Shown: one piece after another, positions 2,728 to 46,172 of the stretch
Numbering within the stretch: position 1 is the stretch's first letter
How the letters are laid out: each line of letters begins with the position of its first letter
Sequence record: OP870146.1
From: Escherichia phage vB_Eco_F27
Strand: one strand, 5' to 3'
Length of the DNA: 64,000 nucleotides
The notes under the pieces: model-generated
What the model was told of the DNA's origin: nothing
Seen by the model: the letters and a program-made list of their open reading frames with translations, nothing else
Database searches by the model: none
Translations under genes and position numbers: made by a program

Positions 2728-3291
2728 TTACCATTCCAATGCTAATTTTTTAAATTGTTTTTGTTCTTTCACATTTTTTGTAACTTCTTTGAGAAACTCA
2801 TCAGTGACCATGGCCTTCAGTTCTTTAAGGACTATTGGCAACTTGTTATTTTTTTCAAGGAGCCGCTTATACACAGTAGCATCATTCATGTTGATTGTGT
2901 AATGTTTCATCAACAGTTTGATAACTAGTAACTCTGAAGTGTCTTCGACTAGTTTAGCCCATTTAGAGAATCGTCGGCCACGTGGAATTGCCGCCATCAT
3001 ATAGTTGAAGTGCGCTTCATCACTTAATTCAGAACCGACCAAGTTCATCATGTAAACTGCGGGCATACATTCTGGAAACTGGGACAATGAGTTTTCAACC
3101 ATAAATTTTGAGTAGTCAACCTGAGCAATTGACATCGATTTCTTTTCATTAATTGCGTTAATGATTTTAAAGAATTCGTTCTCAGGTTTTTCTTTAAACA
3201 TGTCAGCACATTTTTGAATCGCATCAGCGTCGTTAGACTTCCATGCGATTTGGTGCTCGTTAAGTTGGACGTCATCATCAAATAAGTTCAT
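2728..3291 (-). CDS. 62: clamp-loader small subunit gp62
   Basis: 187 aa, the same length and position as T4 gp62 (between 44 and regA). Confidence 0.9.
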
Positions 3292-3292
3292 A

Positions 3293-4255
3293 TTATTTCC
3301 AAGTCAATTCACAAGTCAATTGAAGAAGCATATACATAACATGTAATTCAATATTACTAGCTAGTCCATGAAACTTATTATTTTCACCTGCAATTTCATA
3401 AAGCGAAATAATACTTTTACCTGGTGCGACTTTGTCATAACACTCAGAAACTAATTTATCGATGAACCATGAATAATCAGCGGCATATTTTGGAGCTAAT
3501 GCACGAAGCTGTTTGATATCTTTATTTTTCATTGCTTCTATGACATCATCTACCGTGCCACGATCATTGGTTACAATCGACAAAATACCTGCATCAAGAA
3601 CACCTTTAGACGAGTACTGGTCTAATTGACCAATTGTACGACGAAAGTCCGGGAAGTTCTTTTTAACCAGAGCTGCAACAACTTTCATGTCAGCGATTTC
3701 GATATTTTCGTTCTTACAGATTTCAACCATACGATGAATCATTTTCTTCATCATCGAGATTTTATCTTCTTCGGTTGGACGACCGAATTCGATAACTCGA
3801 CAACGACTACGTAACGGTTCGATAATTCCATCGATGTTGTTGGCAGTAATAATAATAGAACAGTTACTAGAGAATTCTTCCATGAATGTACGAAGGTGTC
3901 GTTGTGATTCAGCAAGGCCACTACGGTCAAATTCATCGATAACGATAACTTTAGGCTTGCCTTCCATTGAGACTGAACGAGCAAATGCAGTTAACGGACC
4001 GCGTACAAAATCAATTTTACAATCAGAACCGTTGACGAACATCATTTCAGCGTTGATATCGTTACATAATGCTTTTGCCACGGTTGTTTTACCGGTACCA
4101 GGAGAAGGAGAGTGTAAAATAATATGAGGAAGTTTTCCTTTAGATACTAAAGACTTGAATGTTTCATGGTCATACGCAGGCAGAATACATTCGTCAATGG
4201 AAGAAGGACGATATTTCTGTTCTAGAATGTGTTCTTTGGAATTGATAGTAATCAT
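3293..4255 (-). CDS. 44: clamp-loader ATPase gp44
   Basis: 320 aa. Walker [11 protein letters not shown], Walker [12 protein letters not shown] motif LRSRC. Sits in the T4 gene 44 position. Confidence 0.93.
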
Positions 4256-32462: not shown

Positions 32463-32861
32463 TTATTTGTAGGTTTTCATCCAATTCTTGAACAAAGCCG
32501 CGACGTCTTTCTCTTTAACGTTCAGTTTAATGTCCAACATTTTACCGCCCGCTGCTCTCGTTTGACGAATCTTAGCAGTACCGGTTTCACCATTCCACTC
32601 AACATAATATTGCCCAGTGTTCATAGCGATACCGTTGCCAAAGTCTTCGTTATTAGAAGTAGTGAATGCCAACTTCATGGTCTTAGAGACACGGGCCGGC
32701 ATGCCTGTCTGAAGGGCATTACGAACGCGAATAACCTGAGGAGTGGCCTGGGTCAGGTTCTCATTCAGTTCTTCGGTGAACTCTTCAGATTCAAACATCG
32801 CCAAAAGTTCTTTAGATGCAGGAATTACATTCTCTGCGATAAATTCTTTATATGTTTTCAT
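32463..32861 (-). CDS. capsid-targeted internal protein (IP-A)
   Basis: The N-terminus MKTYKEFIAE-N is the T4 capsid targeting sequence, with an I-x-E prohead-protease site at residue 10. Sits in the ipII/ipIII neighbourhood next to e. Confidence 0.75.
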   Translation of the reverse strand: MKTYKEFIAENVIPASKELLAMFESEEFTEELNENLTQATPQVIRVRNALQTGMPARVSKTMKLAFTTSNNEDFGNGIAMNTGQYYVEWNGETGTAKIRQTRAAGGKMLDIKLNVKEKDVAALFKNWMKTYK

Positions 32862-32892
32862 TTTTTGTTTCCTTGTTTGTTTTGATAGAGTA

Positions 32893-32922
32893 ATTATACC
32901 ATATTAATACTTAAGCGTAAAC
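32893..32922 (-). promoter_or_regulatory. early promoter
   Basis: Minus strand: GTTTAC, 18 nt, TATAAT. Confidence 0.6.
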
Positions 32923-32925
32923 CGT

Positions 32926-33186
32926 TTAAGCTTTACCGCCAGAAATAATTCCGAAGTTGTTAAAATCGTATCCAATATCGTCAACATCTACTTTAGGACT
33001 TACTACAACATAAGCAATTTCACTACGTTTTGCATAGGTGTTTATTTCTTTACCATCACCACCTAAGAAAGAATACCCATTACGTTTTAATGAGCCAAAG
33101 TCTTCCGCATCACCAATGAAAGCTTTAACTTTAAATTTAGGACCTTTGGCATCTGCTTCAACGATAAATTCTTGATACATTTTCAT
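32926..33186 (-). CDS. capsid-targeted internal protein (IP-B)
   Basis: N-terminus MKMYQEFIVE-A (CTS plus I-x-E site). 86 aa. Confidence 0.7.
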   Translation of the reverse strand: MKMYQEFIVEADAKGPKFKVKAFIGDAEDFGSLKRNGYSFLGGDGKEINTYAKRSEIAYVVVSPKVDVDDIGYDFNNFGIISGGKA

Positions 33187-33192
33187 TTTTCC

Positions 33193-33303
33193 TTAGTAAA
33201 TTGATTTACCATAGTATTTGTACCAAGTCGGACGTTGAGCAATTTTTTCATCTAAGCGTGCTTGATTTATCGCAATGGACGCTTCGGACGGGTCATAATT
33301 TCC
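33193..33303 (-). pseudogene. denV: denV (endonuclease V, pyrimidine-dimer glycosylase) 3' remnant
   Basis: The translated tail [36 protein letters not shown] matches the C-terminus of T4 endonuclease V ([37 protein letters not shown]). The upstream ~100 codons are missing and no in-frame ATG remains. A promoter cassette abuts the break. Confidence 0.8.
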
Positions 33304-33323
33304 TCCAAGTAGTTGATGAATGT

Positions 33324-33353
33324 ATAGTATCAAAACCCTTGGAGGAAGTAAAC
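33324..33353 (-). promoter_or_regulatory. early promoter cassette at the denV breakpoint
   Basis: Minus strand: GTTTAC, 18 nt, TACTAT. The spacer TTCCTCCAAG (rc of 33338..33347) is complementary to CTTGGAGGAA (rc of 33300..33309). Confidence 0.6.
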
Positions 33354-33355
33354 AA

Positions 33356-33637
33356 CTATTTTTCTGAAGCGCCTGAAATATATTTTTCAAGACGTTGTTT
33401 CATTAAAGAGCCGTTCTTAGCGATTTCTTCCGGTTTATCGCACATACGCAACAAGGCTTCGAGCTTAACGATATCGCTGGTACGTTCAAATTTGCGAGTA
33501 TCTATCTTACTAGCAAGTTCAGAAATACGTGCTAATAGACTTTCGGCTTCAACCAAAGCTGCACCTAGCTTAGTTGCAAATGTGTCAGTAGCTTCGTTAA
33601 GAATAGATTCTGATAAAAATTCACTATATGTTTTCAT
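33356..33637 (-). CDS. capsid-targeted internal protein (IP-C)
   Basis: From the ATG at 33637 (ATGA overlap with the e stop) the N-terminus is [11 protein letters not shown] (CTS plus L-x-E site). 93 aa. Confidence 0.7.
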
Positions 33638-41411: not shown

Positions 41412-42038
41412 TTACTTACGAGTTTTTGCATATTGAGCAGCGTCAGCAGCCAAACGACCTGCCTGACGAAGTTTTTCTTTAATCGCATCGTGAAGTGGTT
41501 GAGTGTACTTCAAACCTTCGATAGTCAAATAAAGACGATAAAGGTCCGGGGTATCAAGGTTGTTGATATGTTGGCCATTACGAAGAATATTGAATTCACG
41601 AACGAGTGAAGATGTATCGGATTCAATATCACGAACAAGCGAAGATAGTTGTTTATATTTTTTTTCCAGACTAGAAGTATCAAACTTAAGAGCAGGAGCT
41701 TTAGGAGTTGCTTTTACTTCAGGCTTAGGCTCAGGTTTTGCTATTGCTTTAGGGGTCGCAGGTTTAGGAATGGAAGGAGTAGGTTTTACTTTAGGCGAAC
41801 CCGATTTAGCAGAAACACCACCACTAACAATATCTTTGAATGCTTTAGAAGCTCTGTAATATTCTTTTTGGCTGGAAGTGTCGATACCGTACATGGCTTG
41901 AACGTTTTTGAAAAACTCTGTACTAGTTTTTGTACCAGAAATAGCATCGTAAGCAGCTTGCCATTTCTCTTTTGTCATACGTACACCGGCTTCGGTGATT
42001 ACTTCCGTTTCGGCTAAAAATTCATTAAAAGTATACAT
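41412..42038 (-). CDS. capsid-targeted internal protein (IP-D) with a Lys/Pro/Ala-rich tract
   Basis: N-terminus MYTFNEFLAE-T (CTS-like, L-x-E site). Central KVKPTPSIPKPATPKAIAKPEPKPEVKATPKAPALK. A late promoter lies directly upstream. Confidence 0.65.
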   Translation of the reverse strand: MYTFNEFLAETEVITEAGVRMTKEKWQAAYDAISGTKTSTEFFKNVQAMYGIDTSSQKEYYRASKAFKDIVSGGVSAKSGSPKVKPTPSIPKPATPKAIAKPEPKPEVKATPKAPALKFDTSSLEKKYKQLSSLVRDIESDTSSLVREFNILRNGQHINNLDTPDLYRLYLTIEGLKYTQPLHDAIKEKLRQAGRLAADAAQYAKTRK

Positions 42039-42072: not shown

Positions 42073-42101
42073 ATATTTATACAAAAAAGCCCCAACCTTT
42101 C
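42073..42101 (-). terminator. intrinsic terminator closing the tRNA/stable-RNA unit (identical to 26805..26832)
   Basis: Minus-strand AGCCCCUUCC-GAAA-GGUUGGGGCU followed by U6. Confidence 0.75.
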
Positions 42102-43776: not shown

Positions 43777-43983
43777 TTACTCACCTTTTGCAATTTTATC
43801 CATAACGATAGCGATTAAGCCGATTAGAAATGCTACTACCAATGAGATAGAGTTTTCAGTTGTTGTCAGTAGTCCACAAATGAATCCTACAAACATCGAA
43901 AAACTAAAAGCCATTGAAGCAATTACTACAGCAACATTACGAATCAGTTCAGCGCGTTTCATTTTATTTCTCCATTTACTCAT
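43777..43983 (-). CDS. small membrane protein
   Basis: 68 aa with two hydrophobic helices (VAVVIASMAFSFSMFVGFICGLL, SLVVAFLIGLIAIVM). Confidence 0.6.
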   Translation of the reverse strand: MSKWRNKMKRAELIRNVAVVIASMAFSFSMFVGFICGLLTTTENSISLVVAFLIGLIAIVMDKIAKGE

Positions 43984-43999
43984 TTGTTTTGATAGGACT

Positions 44000-44029
44000 A
44001 CTATAACATATCCCTATAGGCTTGTATAC
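44000..44029 (-). promoter_or_regulatory. early promoter cassette (PeSL type)
   Basis: Minus strand: GTATAC, 18 nt, TATAGT. Inverted repeat ATAGGGATA/TAGTCCTAT. Confidence 0.55.
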
Positions 44030-44031
44030 CT

Positions 44032-44295
44032 TTATTTCAAATATATTGCGTATTTTTTATAGCCACCAGGCTCGTGTCGAAGACCTTTATCATTCGCAAA
44101 ACGTTGAATGTTATTGAACTGATTTTCATCAAGTTCGGATGTGTCAAATATGAAAAAGTTTCGTTTGTTGCCAAGCGTGATATGCGGAGTTAAGTCAATG
44201 TTATACAAATTAAGAATATCAGCAATAACCTGATTGACCGCTTTGTTAATTTTCACACCAGACGATTCTGAGATGAATTCGTTGAAAGTTTTCAT
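44032..44295 (-). CDS. capsid-targeted internal protein (IP-E)
   Basis: From the ATG at 44295 the N-terminus is MKTFNEFISE-S (CTS plus I-x-E site). 87 aa. Sits at the ipI locus next to 57B. Confidence 0.65.
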   Translation of the reverse strand: MKTFNEFISESSGVKINKAVNQVIADILNLYNIDLTPHITLGNKRNFFIFDTSELDENQFNNIQRFANDKGLRHEPGGYKKYAIYLK

Positions 44296-44327
44296 TTTAG
44301 GTTCCATTTGGTTGTTTTGATAGGACT

Positions 44328-44357
44328 ACTATAACATAATCCTATCGTGTTGTAAAT
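44328..44357 (-). promoter_or_regulatory. early promoter cassette (PeSL type)
   Basis: Minus strand: ATTTAC, 18 nt, TATAGT. Inverted repeat GATAGGATTA/TAGTCCTATC. Confidence 0.6.
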
Positions 44358-44668
44358 TATTTTATGCCTTTAGAAGAAATGGTGTTTTGGCGTTTGGTCC
44401 CTGTTTGTGAAAAATCGTGGTTATCGATTTGGTCGACTCGCATAACACCAAATGCAGATTTAATTTTAGCCTTTGAACCTTTTTTGATACTAATTATCAT
44501 ATAAGTATCATTTTTCTTATATTCGAAATTTGTTACTTCAACGCCTTGATTAGAAATTGACTTAATAATAGCATTAGCGTATTCATCATCTAACGGACCG
44601 GTGGTGTTAATAATAAAATTTTTATCGGCTTTAGTAGCTTCAGCGATAAACTCTTGATAAGTTTTCAT
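44357..44668 (-). CDS. capsid-targeted internal protein (IP-F, ipI position)
   Basis: From the ATG at 44668 the N-terminus is MKTYQEFIAE-A, the canonical T4 CTS. 103 aa. The longer track ORF runs through the promoter. Confidence 0.7.
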   Translation of the reverse strand: MKTYQEFIAEATKADKNFIINTTGPLDDEYANAIIKSISNQGVEVTNFEYKKNDTYMIISIKKGSKAKIKSAFGVMRVDQIDNHDFSQTGTKRQNTISSKGIK

Positions 44669-44704
44669 TTGTTTTTTCCGTTTGGTTTGAGATTTGATAG
44701 GATG

Positions 44705-44734
44705 ATAGTAACACACCATCATCCTTATGTAAAC
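44705..44734 (-). promoter_or_regulatory. early promoter cassette (PeSL type)
   Basis: Minus strand: GTTTAC, 18 nt, TACTAT. Inverted repeat AGGATGAT/ATCATCCT. Confidence 0.65.
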
Positions 44735-44747
44735 TGTTTTGTGAAAA

Positions 44748-45433
<686 letters not shown>

Positions 45434-45437
45434 TTTA

Positions 45438-46172
45438 TTACCTTAAGATTGTTTCAATTTTAGAATAAAGCTCTTCTAAAGAGCCGTCGTTTGTAATAAC
45501 TAAATCGCCTTCTTCAATAGGCAACCCAGCTTCTGTAATATGTTTATCAGTGGATTCCGTACCAGAGCGAACCACATGAATAACTGTAGCACCCATCGCT
45601 CTAGCGGTTTCCATTTCATGGACTTGGCGTGTATCGGTTACAACATAGTAATCGAAATCACTTCCAATATAATCCATATAGTTTAATGCAAAAAGCTTAA
45701 CCCAATACATACGGTCAAATAAATTAACGACAACATCCGTACCGAGGGCTTGCATAAGACGGCGGATTGACCATGTGTCGTTGATATTATTTATAGCTTC
45801 ACGCAGGGCTTCATATGGTTTAATATCTAGATATGAATACCCACCTTCTAATGATGATAATACTTTAACATTATTAATTGGTAAATATTGACTTTGTAAA
45901 TAAATTAGCGCTTCTTCCAATAATTCAATAACATCCAACTTATTGATATTTAATGGTGTTTCACGGTCATATCCGACACCTTCAAAGTATTCGTATTTCA
46001 ACTCTGTGAATACATCAGGATCTTCAGCATGTTTACGTCCCCAGGCTATTGCTAGAGCGTCTTTAATCGGATATGCCAATTGGTATTTTACGGATTTAAA
46101 GTTTGAATTGATGTAATCAGCAGTAGTGTCTTTACCACTACGTTTGATGCCGCTTAAAAAGATTAGCTCCAT
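45438..46172 (-). CDS. 1: deoxynucleoside monophosphate kinase gp1
   Basis: 244 aa. P-loop LSGIKRSGKDT. WSIRRLMQALGTD...RMYWVKLFAL...DTRQ.HEM..ARAMGATVIHVVR...ITNDGSLEEL matches T4 gp1. Confidence 0.92.
   Translation of the reverse strand: MELIFLSGIKRSGKDTTADYINSNFKSVKYQLAYPIKDALAIAWGRKHAEDPDVFTELKYEYFEGVGYDRETPLNINKLDVIELLEEALIYLQSQYLPINNVKVLSSLEGGYSYLDIKPYEALREAINNINDTWSIRRLMQALGTDVVVNLFDRMYWVKLFALNYMDYIGSDFDYYVVTDTRQVHEMETARAMGATVIHVVRSGTESTDKHITEAGLPIEEGDLVITNDGSLEELYSKIETILR

What the first reader, a model, noticed from the sequence alone, without database searches (positions are those of the whole stretch)
44032..44668. ipI locus carries two leader-bearing internal-protein genes, each behind its own promoter cassette
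Next to 57B, where T4 has the single gene ipI, there are two genes. Their bodies are unrelated.
- 44357..44668 begins MKTYQEFIAE|A.
- 44032..44295 begins MKTFNEFISE|S.

Each is preceded by a PeSL-type early promoter (44705..44734 and 44328..44357). Counting the three near lysozyme and IP-D at 41412..42038, the window holds six proteins with this leader.

The ipI locus is known to be polymorphic among T-even phages. The two bodies here may be uncharacterised alleles.
Basis: partly seen in the sequence, partly recalled or inferred. Interest (0 to 1): 0.5.

Follow-up and report, generated by a model that had tools for sequence, protein, structure and literature searches.

The report
Ip7 and Ip9 internal-protein cassettes
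An RB69-like phage carries two swappable genes for small proteins that are probably packed into the phage head and injected with the DNA; both belong to families named in 1994 (Ip7, Ip9), so the finding is real but already known, and what the proteins do is still unknown.

Summary
Between 57B (Acb1) and tRNA.4, on the minus strand, lie two genes: 44357-44668 (103 aa, MKTYQEFIAE|A) and 44032-44295 (87 aa, MKTFNEFISE|S). Each follows a T4-early-type promoter whose -10 sits inside a hairpin (PeSL). A third PeSL closes the array. The window holds six ORFs with this leader, against none in 200 shuffles.

The genes are not new alleles. The window is a Mosigvirus (RB69-like). The 103-aa protein is 66% identical to Ip7 of RB15 and T2. 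The 87-aa protein is 71% identical to Ip9 of RB15. The 1994 RB15 record carries Ip5-Ip9-Ip7-Ip8 at this locus. The same Ip7-Ip9 pair occurs in over 20 sequenced phages. Neither protein is related to IPI* (PDB 2JUB).

Comparison with sister phages shows that only the protein body is exchanged. The exchanged unit is bounded by the leader codons and by the next PeSL.

Function is unknown. Structure models give only generic alpha/beta folds. A 2025 study tested ip4-ip10 against active GmrSD variants and found no reproducible inhibition.

The Ip9 body also occurs without the leader in siphoviruses, and as a domain of a large Kuttervirus protein. That favours a cytoplasmic anti-host role over a capsid role.

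The parts
44748..45203 (-). Gene 57B (Acb1, anti-CBASS phosphodiesterase). It is the conserved upstream flank of the IP locus.
   Evidence: Pfam PF23474 Acb1, E=1.3e-58. Same position as in T4, T2, RB69 and RB15.
44699..44733 (-). PeSL-1: early-type promoter (-35 TTTACA at 44733-44728; TG-extended -10 TACTAT at 44710-44705) with an 8-12 bp hairpin spanning the -10.
   Evidence: repeat I21; -15.4 kcal/mol, z -3.6. Near-identical (only scattered single-base differences) in all seven Mosigvirus loci aligned.
44639..44668 (-). Leader (capsid-targeting sequence) codons of the Ip7-family gene: MKTYQEFIAE, with an I-A-E|A cleavage motif.
   Evidence: Homology to the IpI-bearing phage KAW3E185 resumes at 44646, inside the leader.
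44357..44668 (-). Ip7-family internal protein gene: 103 aa, predicted mature form 93 aa, 10.3 kDa, pI 9.5. The exchangeable body is 44363-44645.
   Evidence: 66% identity to RB15 and T2 Ip7 over the full length. PHROG 2667, E=2e-38. AF2 model has mean pLDDT 60: a beta-alpha-beta-beta core at residues 16-61 and a conserved basic tail at 67-103 modelled as disordered.
44319..44356 (-). PeSL-2: -35 TTTACA at 44356-44351; TG-extended -10 TATAGT at 44333-44328; hairpin arms 44319-44328/44337-44346.
   Evidence: I23, D1; -14.3 kcal/mol, z -5.5. Conserved in all two-cassette loci.
44266..44295 (-). Leader codons of the Ip9-family gene: MKTFNEFISE, with an I-S-E|S cleavage motif.
   Evidence: Homology to RB69 resumes at 44269, inside the leader. 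The leader DNA is 75% identical to that of the Ip7 gene (D2).
44032..44295 (-). Ip9-family internal protein gene: 87 aa, predicted mature form 77 aa, 8.9 kDa, pI 9.0. The exchangeable body is 44030-44268.
   Evidence: 71% identity to RB15 Ip9 over the full length, 76% over the body. PHROG 7673, E=7e-49. AF2 mean pLDDT 81: alpha-beta-beta-alpha-beta-beta body at residues 18-85, leader disordered.
43986..44028 (-). PeSL-3: degenerate -35 TATACA, TG-extended -10 TATAGT at 44005-44000, weaker hairpin. It closes the cassette array and serves tRNA.4.
   Evidence: D1: 88% identical to PeSL-2 over 43 nt; z -1.25.
43777..43983 (-). tRNA.4-like small membrane protein. It is the conserved downstream flank of the locus.
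   Evidence: (annotated tRNA.4 / putative membrane protein).
41412..42038 (-). Fourth leader-bearing ORF in the window (208 aa, MYTFNEFLAE). It lies outside the locus.
   Evidence: PHROG 2280. TATAAATA at 42074-42081 just upstream.
32463..33637 (-). Second IP locus, beside lysozyme e, with three leader-bearing ORFs: 33356-33637 (Ip5 homologue, 48%), 32926-33186 (distant Ip7-family paralogue) and 32463-32861.

Best explanation
**What it is.** The region is the polymorphic internal-protein (IP) locus of an RB69-like T-even phage (Mosigvirus). It holds two cassettes: an Ip7-family gene and an Ip9-family gene.

**Cassette structure (shown).** Each cassette is a variable protein body set in a constant frame. 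The frame consists of:
- a PeSL, which is a T4-early-type promoter with a hairpin over its -10;
- a ribosome-binding site;
- about 10 leader codons.
The constant frame of roughly 90-100 bp is the shared homology through which bodies are swapped, lost or gained between phages.

**Mechanism (inferred from T4 IPI, IPII and IPIII).**
1. The leader, MKT(Y/F)xEFIxE, acts as a capsid-targeting sequence.
2. It takes the protein into the prohead core.
3. The prohead protease gp21 cuts after Glu10 at the I-x-E motif.
4. The mature basic proteins, about 10.3 and 8.9 kDa, are injected with the DNA.

**Function (inferred).** Their most likely job is to disarm a host defence at the moment of DNA entry. The target is unknown. 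It has not been found among the GmrSD variants tested so far.
For: **Identity**
- The window is 98% identical to Mosigviruses AV118, G2469 and mogra.
- Ip7 identity is 66% and Ip9 identity is 71-76% to the RB15 proteins.
- The PHROG 'internal head protein' families match end to end.

**Locus synteny**
- T4 has 57B-ipI-tRNA.4, T2 has Ip5-Ip7, RB15 has Ip5-Ip9-Ip7-Ip8, and RB69 has Ip7-IpI.

**Cassette boundaries**
- Against RB69, only 44030-44268 (the Ip9 body) lacks homology.
- Against KAW3E185, only 44363-44645 (the Ip7 body) lacks homology.
- p000v and TU01 have one cassette. Contig L013 has none, with a single PeSL left.

**Promoters and hairpins**
-.
- T4 ipI, whose product is known to be packaged and injected, has the same PeSL-gene-PeSL layout and no nearby late promoter.

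**Leader**
- Six copies in the window against 0 in shuffles.
- Substitutions are conservative (Y/F, Q/N, A/S) and the I-x-E motif is retained.

**Counter-defence role**
- T4 Ip1, Ip2 and Ip3 each inhibit a distinct GmrSD enzyme (PMC12373910).
- The neighbouring gene is the anti-CBASS enzyme Acb1.
- Leaderless Ip9-body homologues are found in Kagunavirus and Seuratvirus, whose heads are not T4-type. This argues that the body works in the cytoplasm rather than as a capsid component.
Against: - No experimental evidence was found (mass spectrometry or similar) that these two proteins are in virions.
- Only early-type promoters lie next to the genes. The nearest TATAAATA upstream is 45788-45795, inside gene 1, and such motifs are no more frequent in the window than chance.
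- ip4-ip10 were tested against the active GmrSD variants and no new inhibitory interactions were identified. An apparent ip7 signal with CLS_011 was not reproduced.
- The Ip7 model is of low confidence (mean pLDDT 60).
Confidence: 0.75

Rival explanations
1. Both proteins are specifically inhibitors of GmrSD-family (type IV) restriction enzymes, like T4 Ip1-3. Each would be matched to a variant that has not yet been sampled, for example one that cuts arabinosylated Mosigvirus DNA.
For: All three characterised IPs inhibit GmrSD enzymes with one-to-one specificity. GmrSD diversity is very large. Only 8 variants were active in the published test. Mosigvirus DNA (5-ara-dC) is cleaved by the GmrSD-family enzyme BrxU (PMC13390438). 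In RB69, TU01 and KAW3E185 a true IPI homologue occupies the cassette positions that Ip9 or Ip7 occupy here.
Against: ip4-ip10 gave no reproducible inhibition of any active GmrSD variant. Neither protein shows sequence similarity to IPI*, and 2JUB is not among the listed fold matches. Leaderless Ip9 homologues occur in Kagunavirus, for which I know of no DNA hypermodification (my own knowledge, not tested here).
Confidence: 0.3
2. They are generic basic 'filler' proteins of the capsid interior, serving DNA charge neutralisation or the scaffolding core, with no specific host target.
For: The mature proteins are basic, with pI 9.5 and 9.0. The Ip7 tail is lysine/arginine-rich and modelled as disordered.
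Against: The locus can be empty or hold one to four cassettes in otherwise similar phages, so no particular IP is needed for head assembly. The bodies are conserved as discrete families across genera. The Ip9 body exists without any leader in siphoviruses and as a domain of a 950-aa protein.
Confidence: 0.1
3. They are ordinary early cytoplasmic proteins that are not packaged. On this reading the 'leader' persists mainly as recombination homology or as a translation-initiation region.
For: Only early-type promoters are adjacent. The homology breakpoints fall inside the leader codons.
Against: The leader is conserved at the peptide level, with conservative changes and an intact I-x-E cleavage motif, while its DNA is only 75% identical between the two genes. 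T4 ipI has the same promoter layout and its product is known to be packaged and injected (established T4 knowledge). The siphovirus homologues lack exactly the leader segment, which shows that the leader is an add-on specific to phages with T4-type heads.
Confidence: 0.07

Closest known systems
[not shown]
   Same: Full-length homologue: 66% identity over 103/102 aa, E=4e-47. It has the same leader, lies in the same 57B-tRNA.4 locus, and has the same conserved C-terminal tail KGSKAKIKS.FGV.R.DQID.HDF.QTG.KRQNTI.
   Different: This is the Mosigvirus subtype. Its N-terminal domain has diverged to about half identity. Here it is the first cassette after 57B, whereas it is second in T2 and third in RB15. 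RB69 ORF156c is the same allele, with a 5-aa read-through extension.
Ip9 of phage RB15 (CAA84463 / Q38376), also annotated in VR7 and IME08
   Same: 71% identity over the full length and 76% over the body. Same leader and same locus.
   Different: The linker after the leader is 3 aa shorter. In RB15 Ip9 precedes Ip7, and here it follows Ip7.
T4 IPI / IPI* (PDB 2JUB), inhibitor of GmrSD from strain CT596
   Same: Same locus, same PeSL-flanked cassette architecture, same type of leader, similar size and charge. In sister Mosigviruses an IPI homologue sits in the slot that Ip9 or Ip7 occupies here.
   Different: There is no sequence similarity beyond the leader (positive control). 2JUB is not among the 60 matches listed for either model. 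The IPI leader is 19 aa long (the 2JUB chain starts at residue 20), against a predicted 10 aa here.
PeSL (promoter-early stem-loop) cassette system of Repoila, Tetart, Bouet and Krisch, EMBO J 1994
   Same: An early promoter overlapped by an inverted repeat lies both 5' and 3' of the IP ORFs. Bodies are shuffled between phages, as the paper's abstract describes (recalled from memory; the paper is cited in PMC12373910, but was not held in the library).
   Different: Nothing of substance differs. This window adds exact breakpoints. It also shows that PeSL-type promoters are spread over the whole window, with at least five different stem sequences.

Membership tests
T-even internal proteins (leader/CTS-bearing IPs) | N-terminal conserved leader of about 10-11 aa, MKT(Y/F)xEF(I/L)xE | tested here: met
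   MKTYQEFIAE and MKTFNEFISE. The motif occurs 6 times in the window and 0 times in 200 shuffles.
T-even internal proteins (leader/CTS-bearing IPs) | Prohead-protease (gp21) cleavage motif (L/I)-x-E at the end of the leader | tested here: met
   I-A-E|A and I-S-E|S at residues 8-10. Cleavage itself was not shown.
T-even internal proteins (leader/CTS-bearing IPs) | Encoded in one of the two polymorphic IP loci (57B-tRNA.4, or beside lysozyme e) | tested here: met
   Synteny with T4, T2, RB15 and RB69.
T-even internal proteins (leader/CTS-bearing IPs) | Physically present in the virion and injected with the DNA | not testable with these tools
   Needs virion mass spectrometry or an injection assay.
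Ip7 family | Full-length sequence homology to RB15/T2 Ip7 | tested here: met
   66% identity, E=4e-47. PHROG 2667, E=2e-38 over residues 1-103.
Ip9 family | Full-length sequence homology to RB15 Ip9 | tested here: met
   71% identity, E=1e-44. PHROG 7673, E=7e-49 over residues 1-87.
IPI / IPI* (GmrSD inhibitor, PDB 2JUB) | Sequence homology of the mature protein to IPI* | tested here: not met
   No PDB hit at E <= 10 other than unrelated proteins. The RB69 IpI control hits 2JUB at E=5.8e-42.
IPI / IPI* (GmrSD inhibitor, PDB 2JUB) | Shared fold with IPI* | tested here: inconclusive
   [not shown]
IPI / IPI* (GmrSD inhibitor, PDB 2JUB) | Inhibition of a GmrSD-type enzyme | not testable with these tools
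   Published test of ip4-ip10 against the active GmrSD variants found no reproducible inhibition (PMC12373910). The sequences tested there were not checked against the window alleles.
PeSL promoter cassette | Sigma-70/T4-early-type hexamers with a 17-nt spacer | tested here: met
   TTTACA-17-TACTAT and TTTACA-17-TATAGT, both TG-extended.
PeSL promoter cassette | Inverted repeat overlapping the promoter | tested here: met
   The arms flank the -10. Hairpin z-scores are -3.6 and -5.5. The third copy is weak, at z -1.25.
PeSL promoter cassette | Copies lie both 5' and 3' of the IP ORF and mark the limits of exchange | tested here: met
   There are three copies around two genes. Homology breakpoints fall at the -35 of the downstream PeSL and inside the leader.

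The most novel reading that the evidence does not exclude
The Ip9 body may be a portable anti-host module of about 70 aa that predates its use as an injected protein. It occurs in three forms:
- leaderless, as a free-standing small gene in Kagunavirus and Seuratvirus siphoviruses;
- as a domain of an 860-950-aa Kuttervirus protein;
- with a capsid-targeting leader in T4-like phages.

If so, the leader would be a transferable 'address label' that turns a cytoplasmic early effector into pre-made injected cargo. Ip9 and Ip7 would then target a defence other than the GmrSD enzymes hit by Ip1-3.
Probability: 0.3. Interest if true: 0.5.

Novelty: already known. Interest (0 to 1): 0.25.

Why it matters
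IP loci are hot spots of an arms race between phage and host. T4's three IPs each disarm a different type IV restriction enzyme, while Ip4-Ip10 have no known target. This window adds no new family. It does give a clean natural example of how such effectors are exchanged: only the body moves, between fixed promoter and leader frames. It also shows that the Ip9 body circulates outside T-even phages without the leader. That makes Ip9 a practical candidate for target hunting, because the body can be expressed in trans without a capsid context.

Tried and rejected
1. **Single ancestral order.** I considered that the Mosigvirus variants are deletion derivatives of one ordered array, Ip7 < IpI < IpX < Ip9 < Ip8. 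The eight Mosigvirus loci fit this. It fails more widely: RB15 and loci L027 and L032 have Ip9 before Ip7, and L017 has Ip8 before Ip9.

2. **Pfam, NCBIfam and PADLOC scans.** They gave nothing for either protein.

4. **Late promoter.** A TATAAATA scan found none next to the genes. The count across the window equals chance. T4 ipI also lacks one, so this does not discriminate between the explanations.

5. **Body homology between Ip7 and Ip9.** The hhalign hit rests on the leader only.

6. **Literature.** Two searches for 'Ip7' and 'Ip9' returned mostly inositol-phosphate papers and interview codes. Repoila et al. 1994 is not held in the library.

7. **Kagunavirus promoters.** A promoter scan upstream of the Kagunavirus homologue was uninformative.

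Full report
**1. What is in the sequence**

All the genes discussed are on the minus strand. In order they are:
- 57A at 45203-45433;
- 57B at 44748-45203, which Pfam identifies as the anti-CBASS enzyme Acb1 (E=1.3e-58);
- a 103-aa ORF at 44357-44668;
- an 87-aa ORF at 44032-44295;
- a small membrane protein at 43777-43983, equivalent to T4 tRNA.4.

A six-frame scan finds six ORFs in the window with the motif M[KY][TM][FY]xEF[IL]xE. They are the two here, 41412-42038, and three beside lysozyme e (33356-33637, 32926-33186 and 32463-32861). The motif does not occur in 200 shuffles of the window.

**2. Promoters**

Both genes are preceded by sites that resemble T4 early promoters. The first is TTTACA-17 nt-TACTAT at 44733..44705. 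The second is TTTACA-17 nt-TATAGT at 44356..44328. Both have a TG extension.

In each case the -10 element sits inside an inverted repeat (repeats I21 and I23). As RNA the hairpins fold at -15.4 and -14.3 kcal/mol, with z-scores of -3.6 and -5.5 against dinucleotide shuffles.

A third copy at 44028..44000 lies between the 87-aa gene and tRNA.4. It is 88% identical to the second copy over 43 nt, but its -35 is degenerate and its hairpin is weaker (z -1.25). The array therefore reads PeSL - gene - PeSL - gene - PeSL.

These elements are not specific to IP genes. At least ten promoter-plus-hairpin sites lie on the minus strand of the window, with at least five different stem sequences. The 23-nt core of PeSL-2 occurs six times, against 0 expected. 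Stems that differ in sequence but keep the same geometry suggest that the structure itself is under selection.

**3. Source of the window and identity of the genes**

The 1.6-kb region is 98% identical to Mosigviruses (RB69-like T-even phages) such as AV118, G2469 and mogra. Twenty-two records cover the whole query at more than 91% identity. In mogra the two genes are annotated 'internal head protein 7' and 'Ip9 putative internal head protein'.

tblastn and BLASTP confirm these names:
- The 103-aa protein is 66% identical over its full length to Ip7 of RB15 and T2 (E=4e-47).
- The 87-aa protein is 71% identical to Ip9 of RB15 (E=1e-44), and 76% over the body.

Neither window protein is related to IPI*. 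Neither hits PDB 2JUB, even at E <= 10. As a control, RB69 IpI hits 2JUB at E=5.8e-42. Profile comparison of the Ip7 and Ip9 families aligns only the leader, so 'bodies unrelated' stands at the sequence level.

**4. Cassette exchange**

Eight Mosigvirus loci show these combinations:

| Phage | Cassettes between 57B and tRNA.4 |
|---|---|
| window, mogra | Ip7 - Ip9 |
| RB69 | Ip7 - IpI |
| p000v | Ip7 |
| KAW3E185 | IpI - Ip9 |
| O157 typing phage 3 | IpI - IpX (an 87-aa type) |
| AV112 | IpX - Ip9 |
| ESCO47 | Ip7 - Ip9 - Ip8 |
| TU01 | IpI |

Pairwise alignment gives the limits of exchange in window coordinates:
- Against RB69, everything is homologous except 44030-44268. That segment is the Ip9 body, from leader codon 9-10 to the -35 of PeSL-3.
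- Against KAW3E185, everything is homologous except 44363-44645, which is the Ip7 body.
- p000v lacks 44030-44289.
- The metagenomic contig L013 lacks 44048-44727 and keeps a single PeSL, so its site is empty.

The mobile unit is therefore the body alone. The constant frame of PeSL, ribosome-binding site and leader codons supplies the homology. This is the model proposed in 1994 (abstract recalled from memory; the paper was not available).

I tested whether all variants derive from one ordered array by deletion. The Mosigvirus set fits that idea. RB15, L027 and L032 (Ip9 before Ip7) and L017 (Ip8 before Ip9) do not.

Cassettes also move between the two IP loci:
- The window's 33356-33637 gene, beside lysozyme, is an Ip5 homologue (48%).
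- 32926-33186 is a distant Ip7-family paralogue (PHROG 2667, E=4e-21; 29-32% identity in the alignments).
- In JS98 and JD18 the Ip7 homologue lies near ipIII or lysozyme rather than near 57B.

**5. The proteins**

After removal of the 10-aa leader, the predicted mature proteins are as follows:

| Protein | Length | Mass | pI |
|---|---|---|---|
| Ip7 family | 93 aa | 10.3 kDa | 9.5 |
| Ip9 family | 77 aa | 8.9 kDa | 9.0 |

The AlphaFold2 model of Ip9 has a mean pLDDT of 81. The leader is disordered and the body at residues 18-85 is compact, with an alpha-beta-beta-alpha-beta-beta layout.

The Ip7 model is weaker, with a mean pLDDT of 60. It shows a beta-alpha-beta-beta core at residues 16-61 and a tail at 67-103 modelled as disordered. 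That tail is nevertheless the best-conserved part of the family, so it may fold on binding a partner.

**6. The Ip9 body outside T-even phages**

tblastn and an exhaustive HMMER search show a small family, with 10 representatives at 50% identity. Its members take three forms:
- Leaderless proteins of 66-77 aa in siphoviruses. Examples are Kagunavirus UTEC10 (58% identity) and Seuratvirus KS_S4 (46%). They start exactly where the T-even leader and linker end, matching PHROG 7673 from profile position 19-20.
- A domain of an 861-950-aa Kuttervirus protein. It lies near the C-terminus in one version and is internal in the other.
- Leader-bearing versions in other T4-like phages (P0022, P0027).

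This favours a body that acts in the host cytoplasm, with the leader added in phages that have T4-type heads. It argues against a purely capsid-internal role.

**7. Mechanism**

*Shown:* the cassette architecture, the promoter-like sites and hairpins, the leader with its I-x-E motif, the family membership and the exchange boundaries.

*Inferred from established knowledge of T4 IPI, IPII and IPIII:* the leader targets the protein to the prohead core, gp21 removes it, and the mature protein is injected with the DNA.

Only early-type promoters lie next to the genes. T4 ipI has the same PeSL-gene-PeSL layout and also lacks a nearby TATAAATA. This therefore does not argue against packaging.

*Inferred by analogy:* a counter-defence role. 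T4 Ip1, Ip2 and Ip3 each inhibit one GmrSD-type enzyme, with no cross-protection (PMC12373910). Mosigvirus DNA carries arabosylated cytosine (5-ara-dC) and is cut by the GmrSD-family enzyme BrxU (PMC13390438). The adjacent gene is Acb1.

Against a GmrSD target specifically, the same 2025 study tested ip4-ip10 against the active GmrSD variants and found no reproducible inhibition. An apparent ip7 signal was not reproduced. I did not check the sequences tested there against the window alleles.

**8. Verdict**

- The families were named in 1994.
- The exact pair is present and annotated in many sequenced Mosigviruses.

The function of Ip7 and Ip9 remains open. The leaderless Ip9 homologues are the most useful lead from this work.

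Noticed in passing
L009 2504-2722 (Kagunavirus UTEC10); L010 2492-2716 (Seuratvirus KS_S4); L012 2090-4942 (Kuttervirus Mansal); P0030: The Ip9 body occurs without the leader as a 72-74-aa protein in siphoviruses. It also occurs as a domain of an 861-950-aa Kuttervirus protein, near the C-terminus or internal. The 'internal head protein' label on the KS_S4 gene is probably a name carried over by similarity.
   Followed up: partly
P0017 (Escherichia phage OLB35, annotated 'ip7 protein', 77 aa): This looks like an in-frame Ip7::Ip9 fusion: Ip7 residues up to ...KGSKAKIKSSF joined to the Ip9 C-terminus DENQFNNIQRFANDKGLRHEPGGYKKYAIYLK. A deletion between adjacent cassettes would produce it. The N-terminus lacks the leader.
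   Followed up: no
window 32926-33186 and 33356-33637: In the lysozyme-side IP locus, the 86-aa ORF (MKMYQEFIVE) is a distant Ip7-family paralogue (PHROG 2667, E=4e-21; 29-32% identity). The 93-aa ORF is an Ip5 homologue (48% to RB15 Ip5). The same cassette families therefore populate both IP loci. In JS98 and JD18 the Ip7 homologue lies in the other locus.
   Followed up: partly
window, minus strand: 11240, 11665, 21944, 26343, 36379, 40488, 44356, 44733 (positions of the -35 start): Promoter-plus-hairpin (PeSL-type) elements are spread across the window, with at least five different stem sequences. The 23-nt core TGTTATAGTAGTCCTATCAAAAC has 6 copies, against 0 expected. The same geometry with different stems suggests selection on the structure.
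   Followed up: partly
L013 (IMGVR_UViG_3300030021_000002), 2952-3598: This metagenomic Mosigvirus-like contig, whose 57B is 99% identical, has no IP gene between 57B and tRNA.4. A single PeSL remains, so the site is empty.
   Followed up: partly
window 44748-45203: Gene 57B is the anti-CBASS phosphodiesterase Acb1 (Pfam, E=1.3e-58). The IP cassettes therefore sit directly beside a known counter-defence gene.
   Followed up: no
L012 2090-2130 (Kuttervirus Mansal, 950-aa protein): The N-terminus, MAIPSFLNFLEES, loosely resembles the T-even leader (x-F-x-x-F-L-E-E|S). Whether this large protein is a packaged virion protein was not examined.
   Followed up: no
window 42074-42081: A late-promoter-like TATAAATA lies 36-43 nt upstream of the 208-aa leader-bearing ORF at 41412-42038. 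No such motif precedes the Ip7 or Ip9 genes. The count across the window equals chance.
   Followed up: partly
L002 4669-4995 (RB69 ORF156c): The RB69 copy of the Ip7-type gene has TAT where the window has the stop codon TAA. It reads 5 codons further (YFTTR), into the -35 region of the next PeSL.
   Followed up: no
window 44669-44698: The stretch between PeSL-1 and the Ip7 start codon (ATCTCAAACCAAACGGAAAAAACAA) differs from the version shared by the six other Mosigviruses aligned (ATAAACAACCTCAAGGAAATAAA). The window therefore has a different ribosome-binding region.
   Followed up: no
P0018 (118 aa), P0015 (107 aa); window ORF 44357-44722: Automatic gene calls in public data start these IP genes at upstream ATGs inside the PeSL (MMVCYYHPIK...), which hides the N-terminal leader. 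RB69 ipI is likewise annotated from an upstream MEPK.
   Followed up: no
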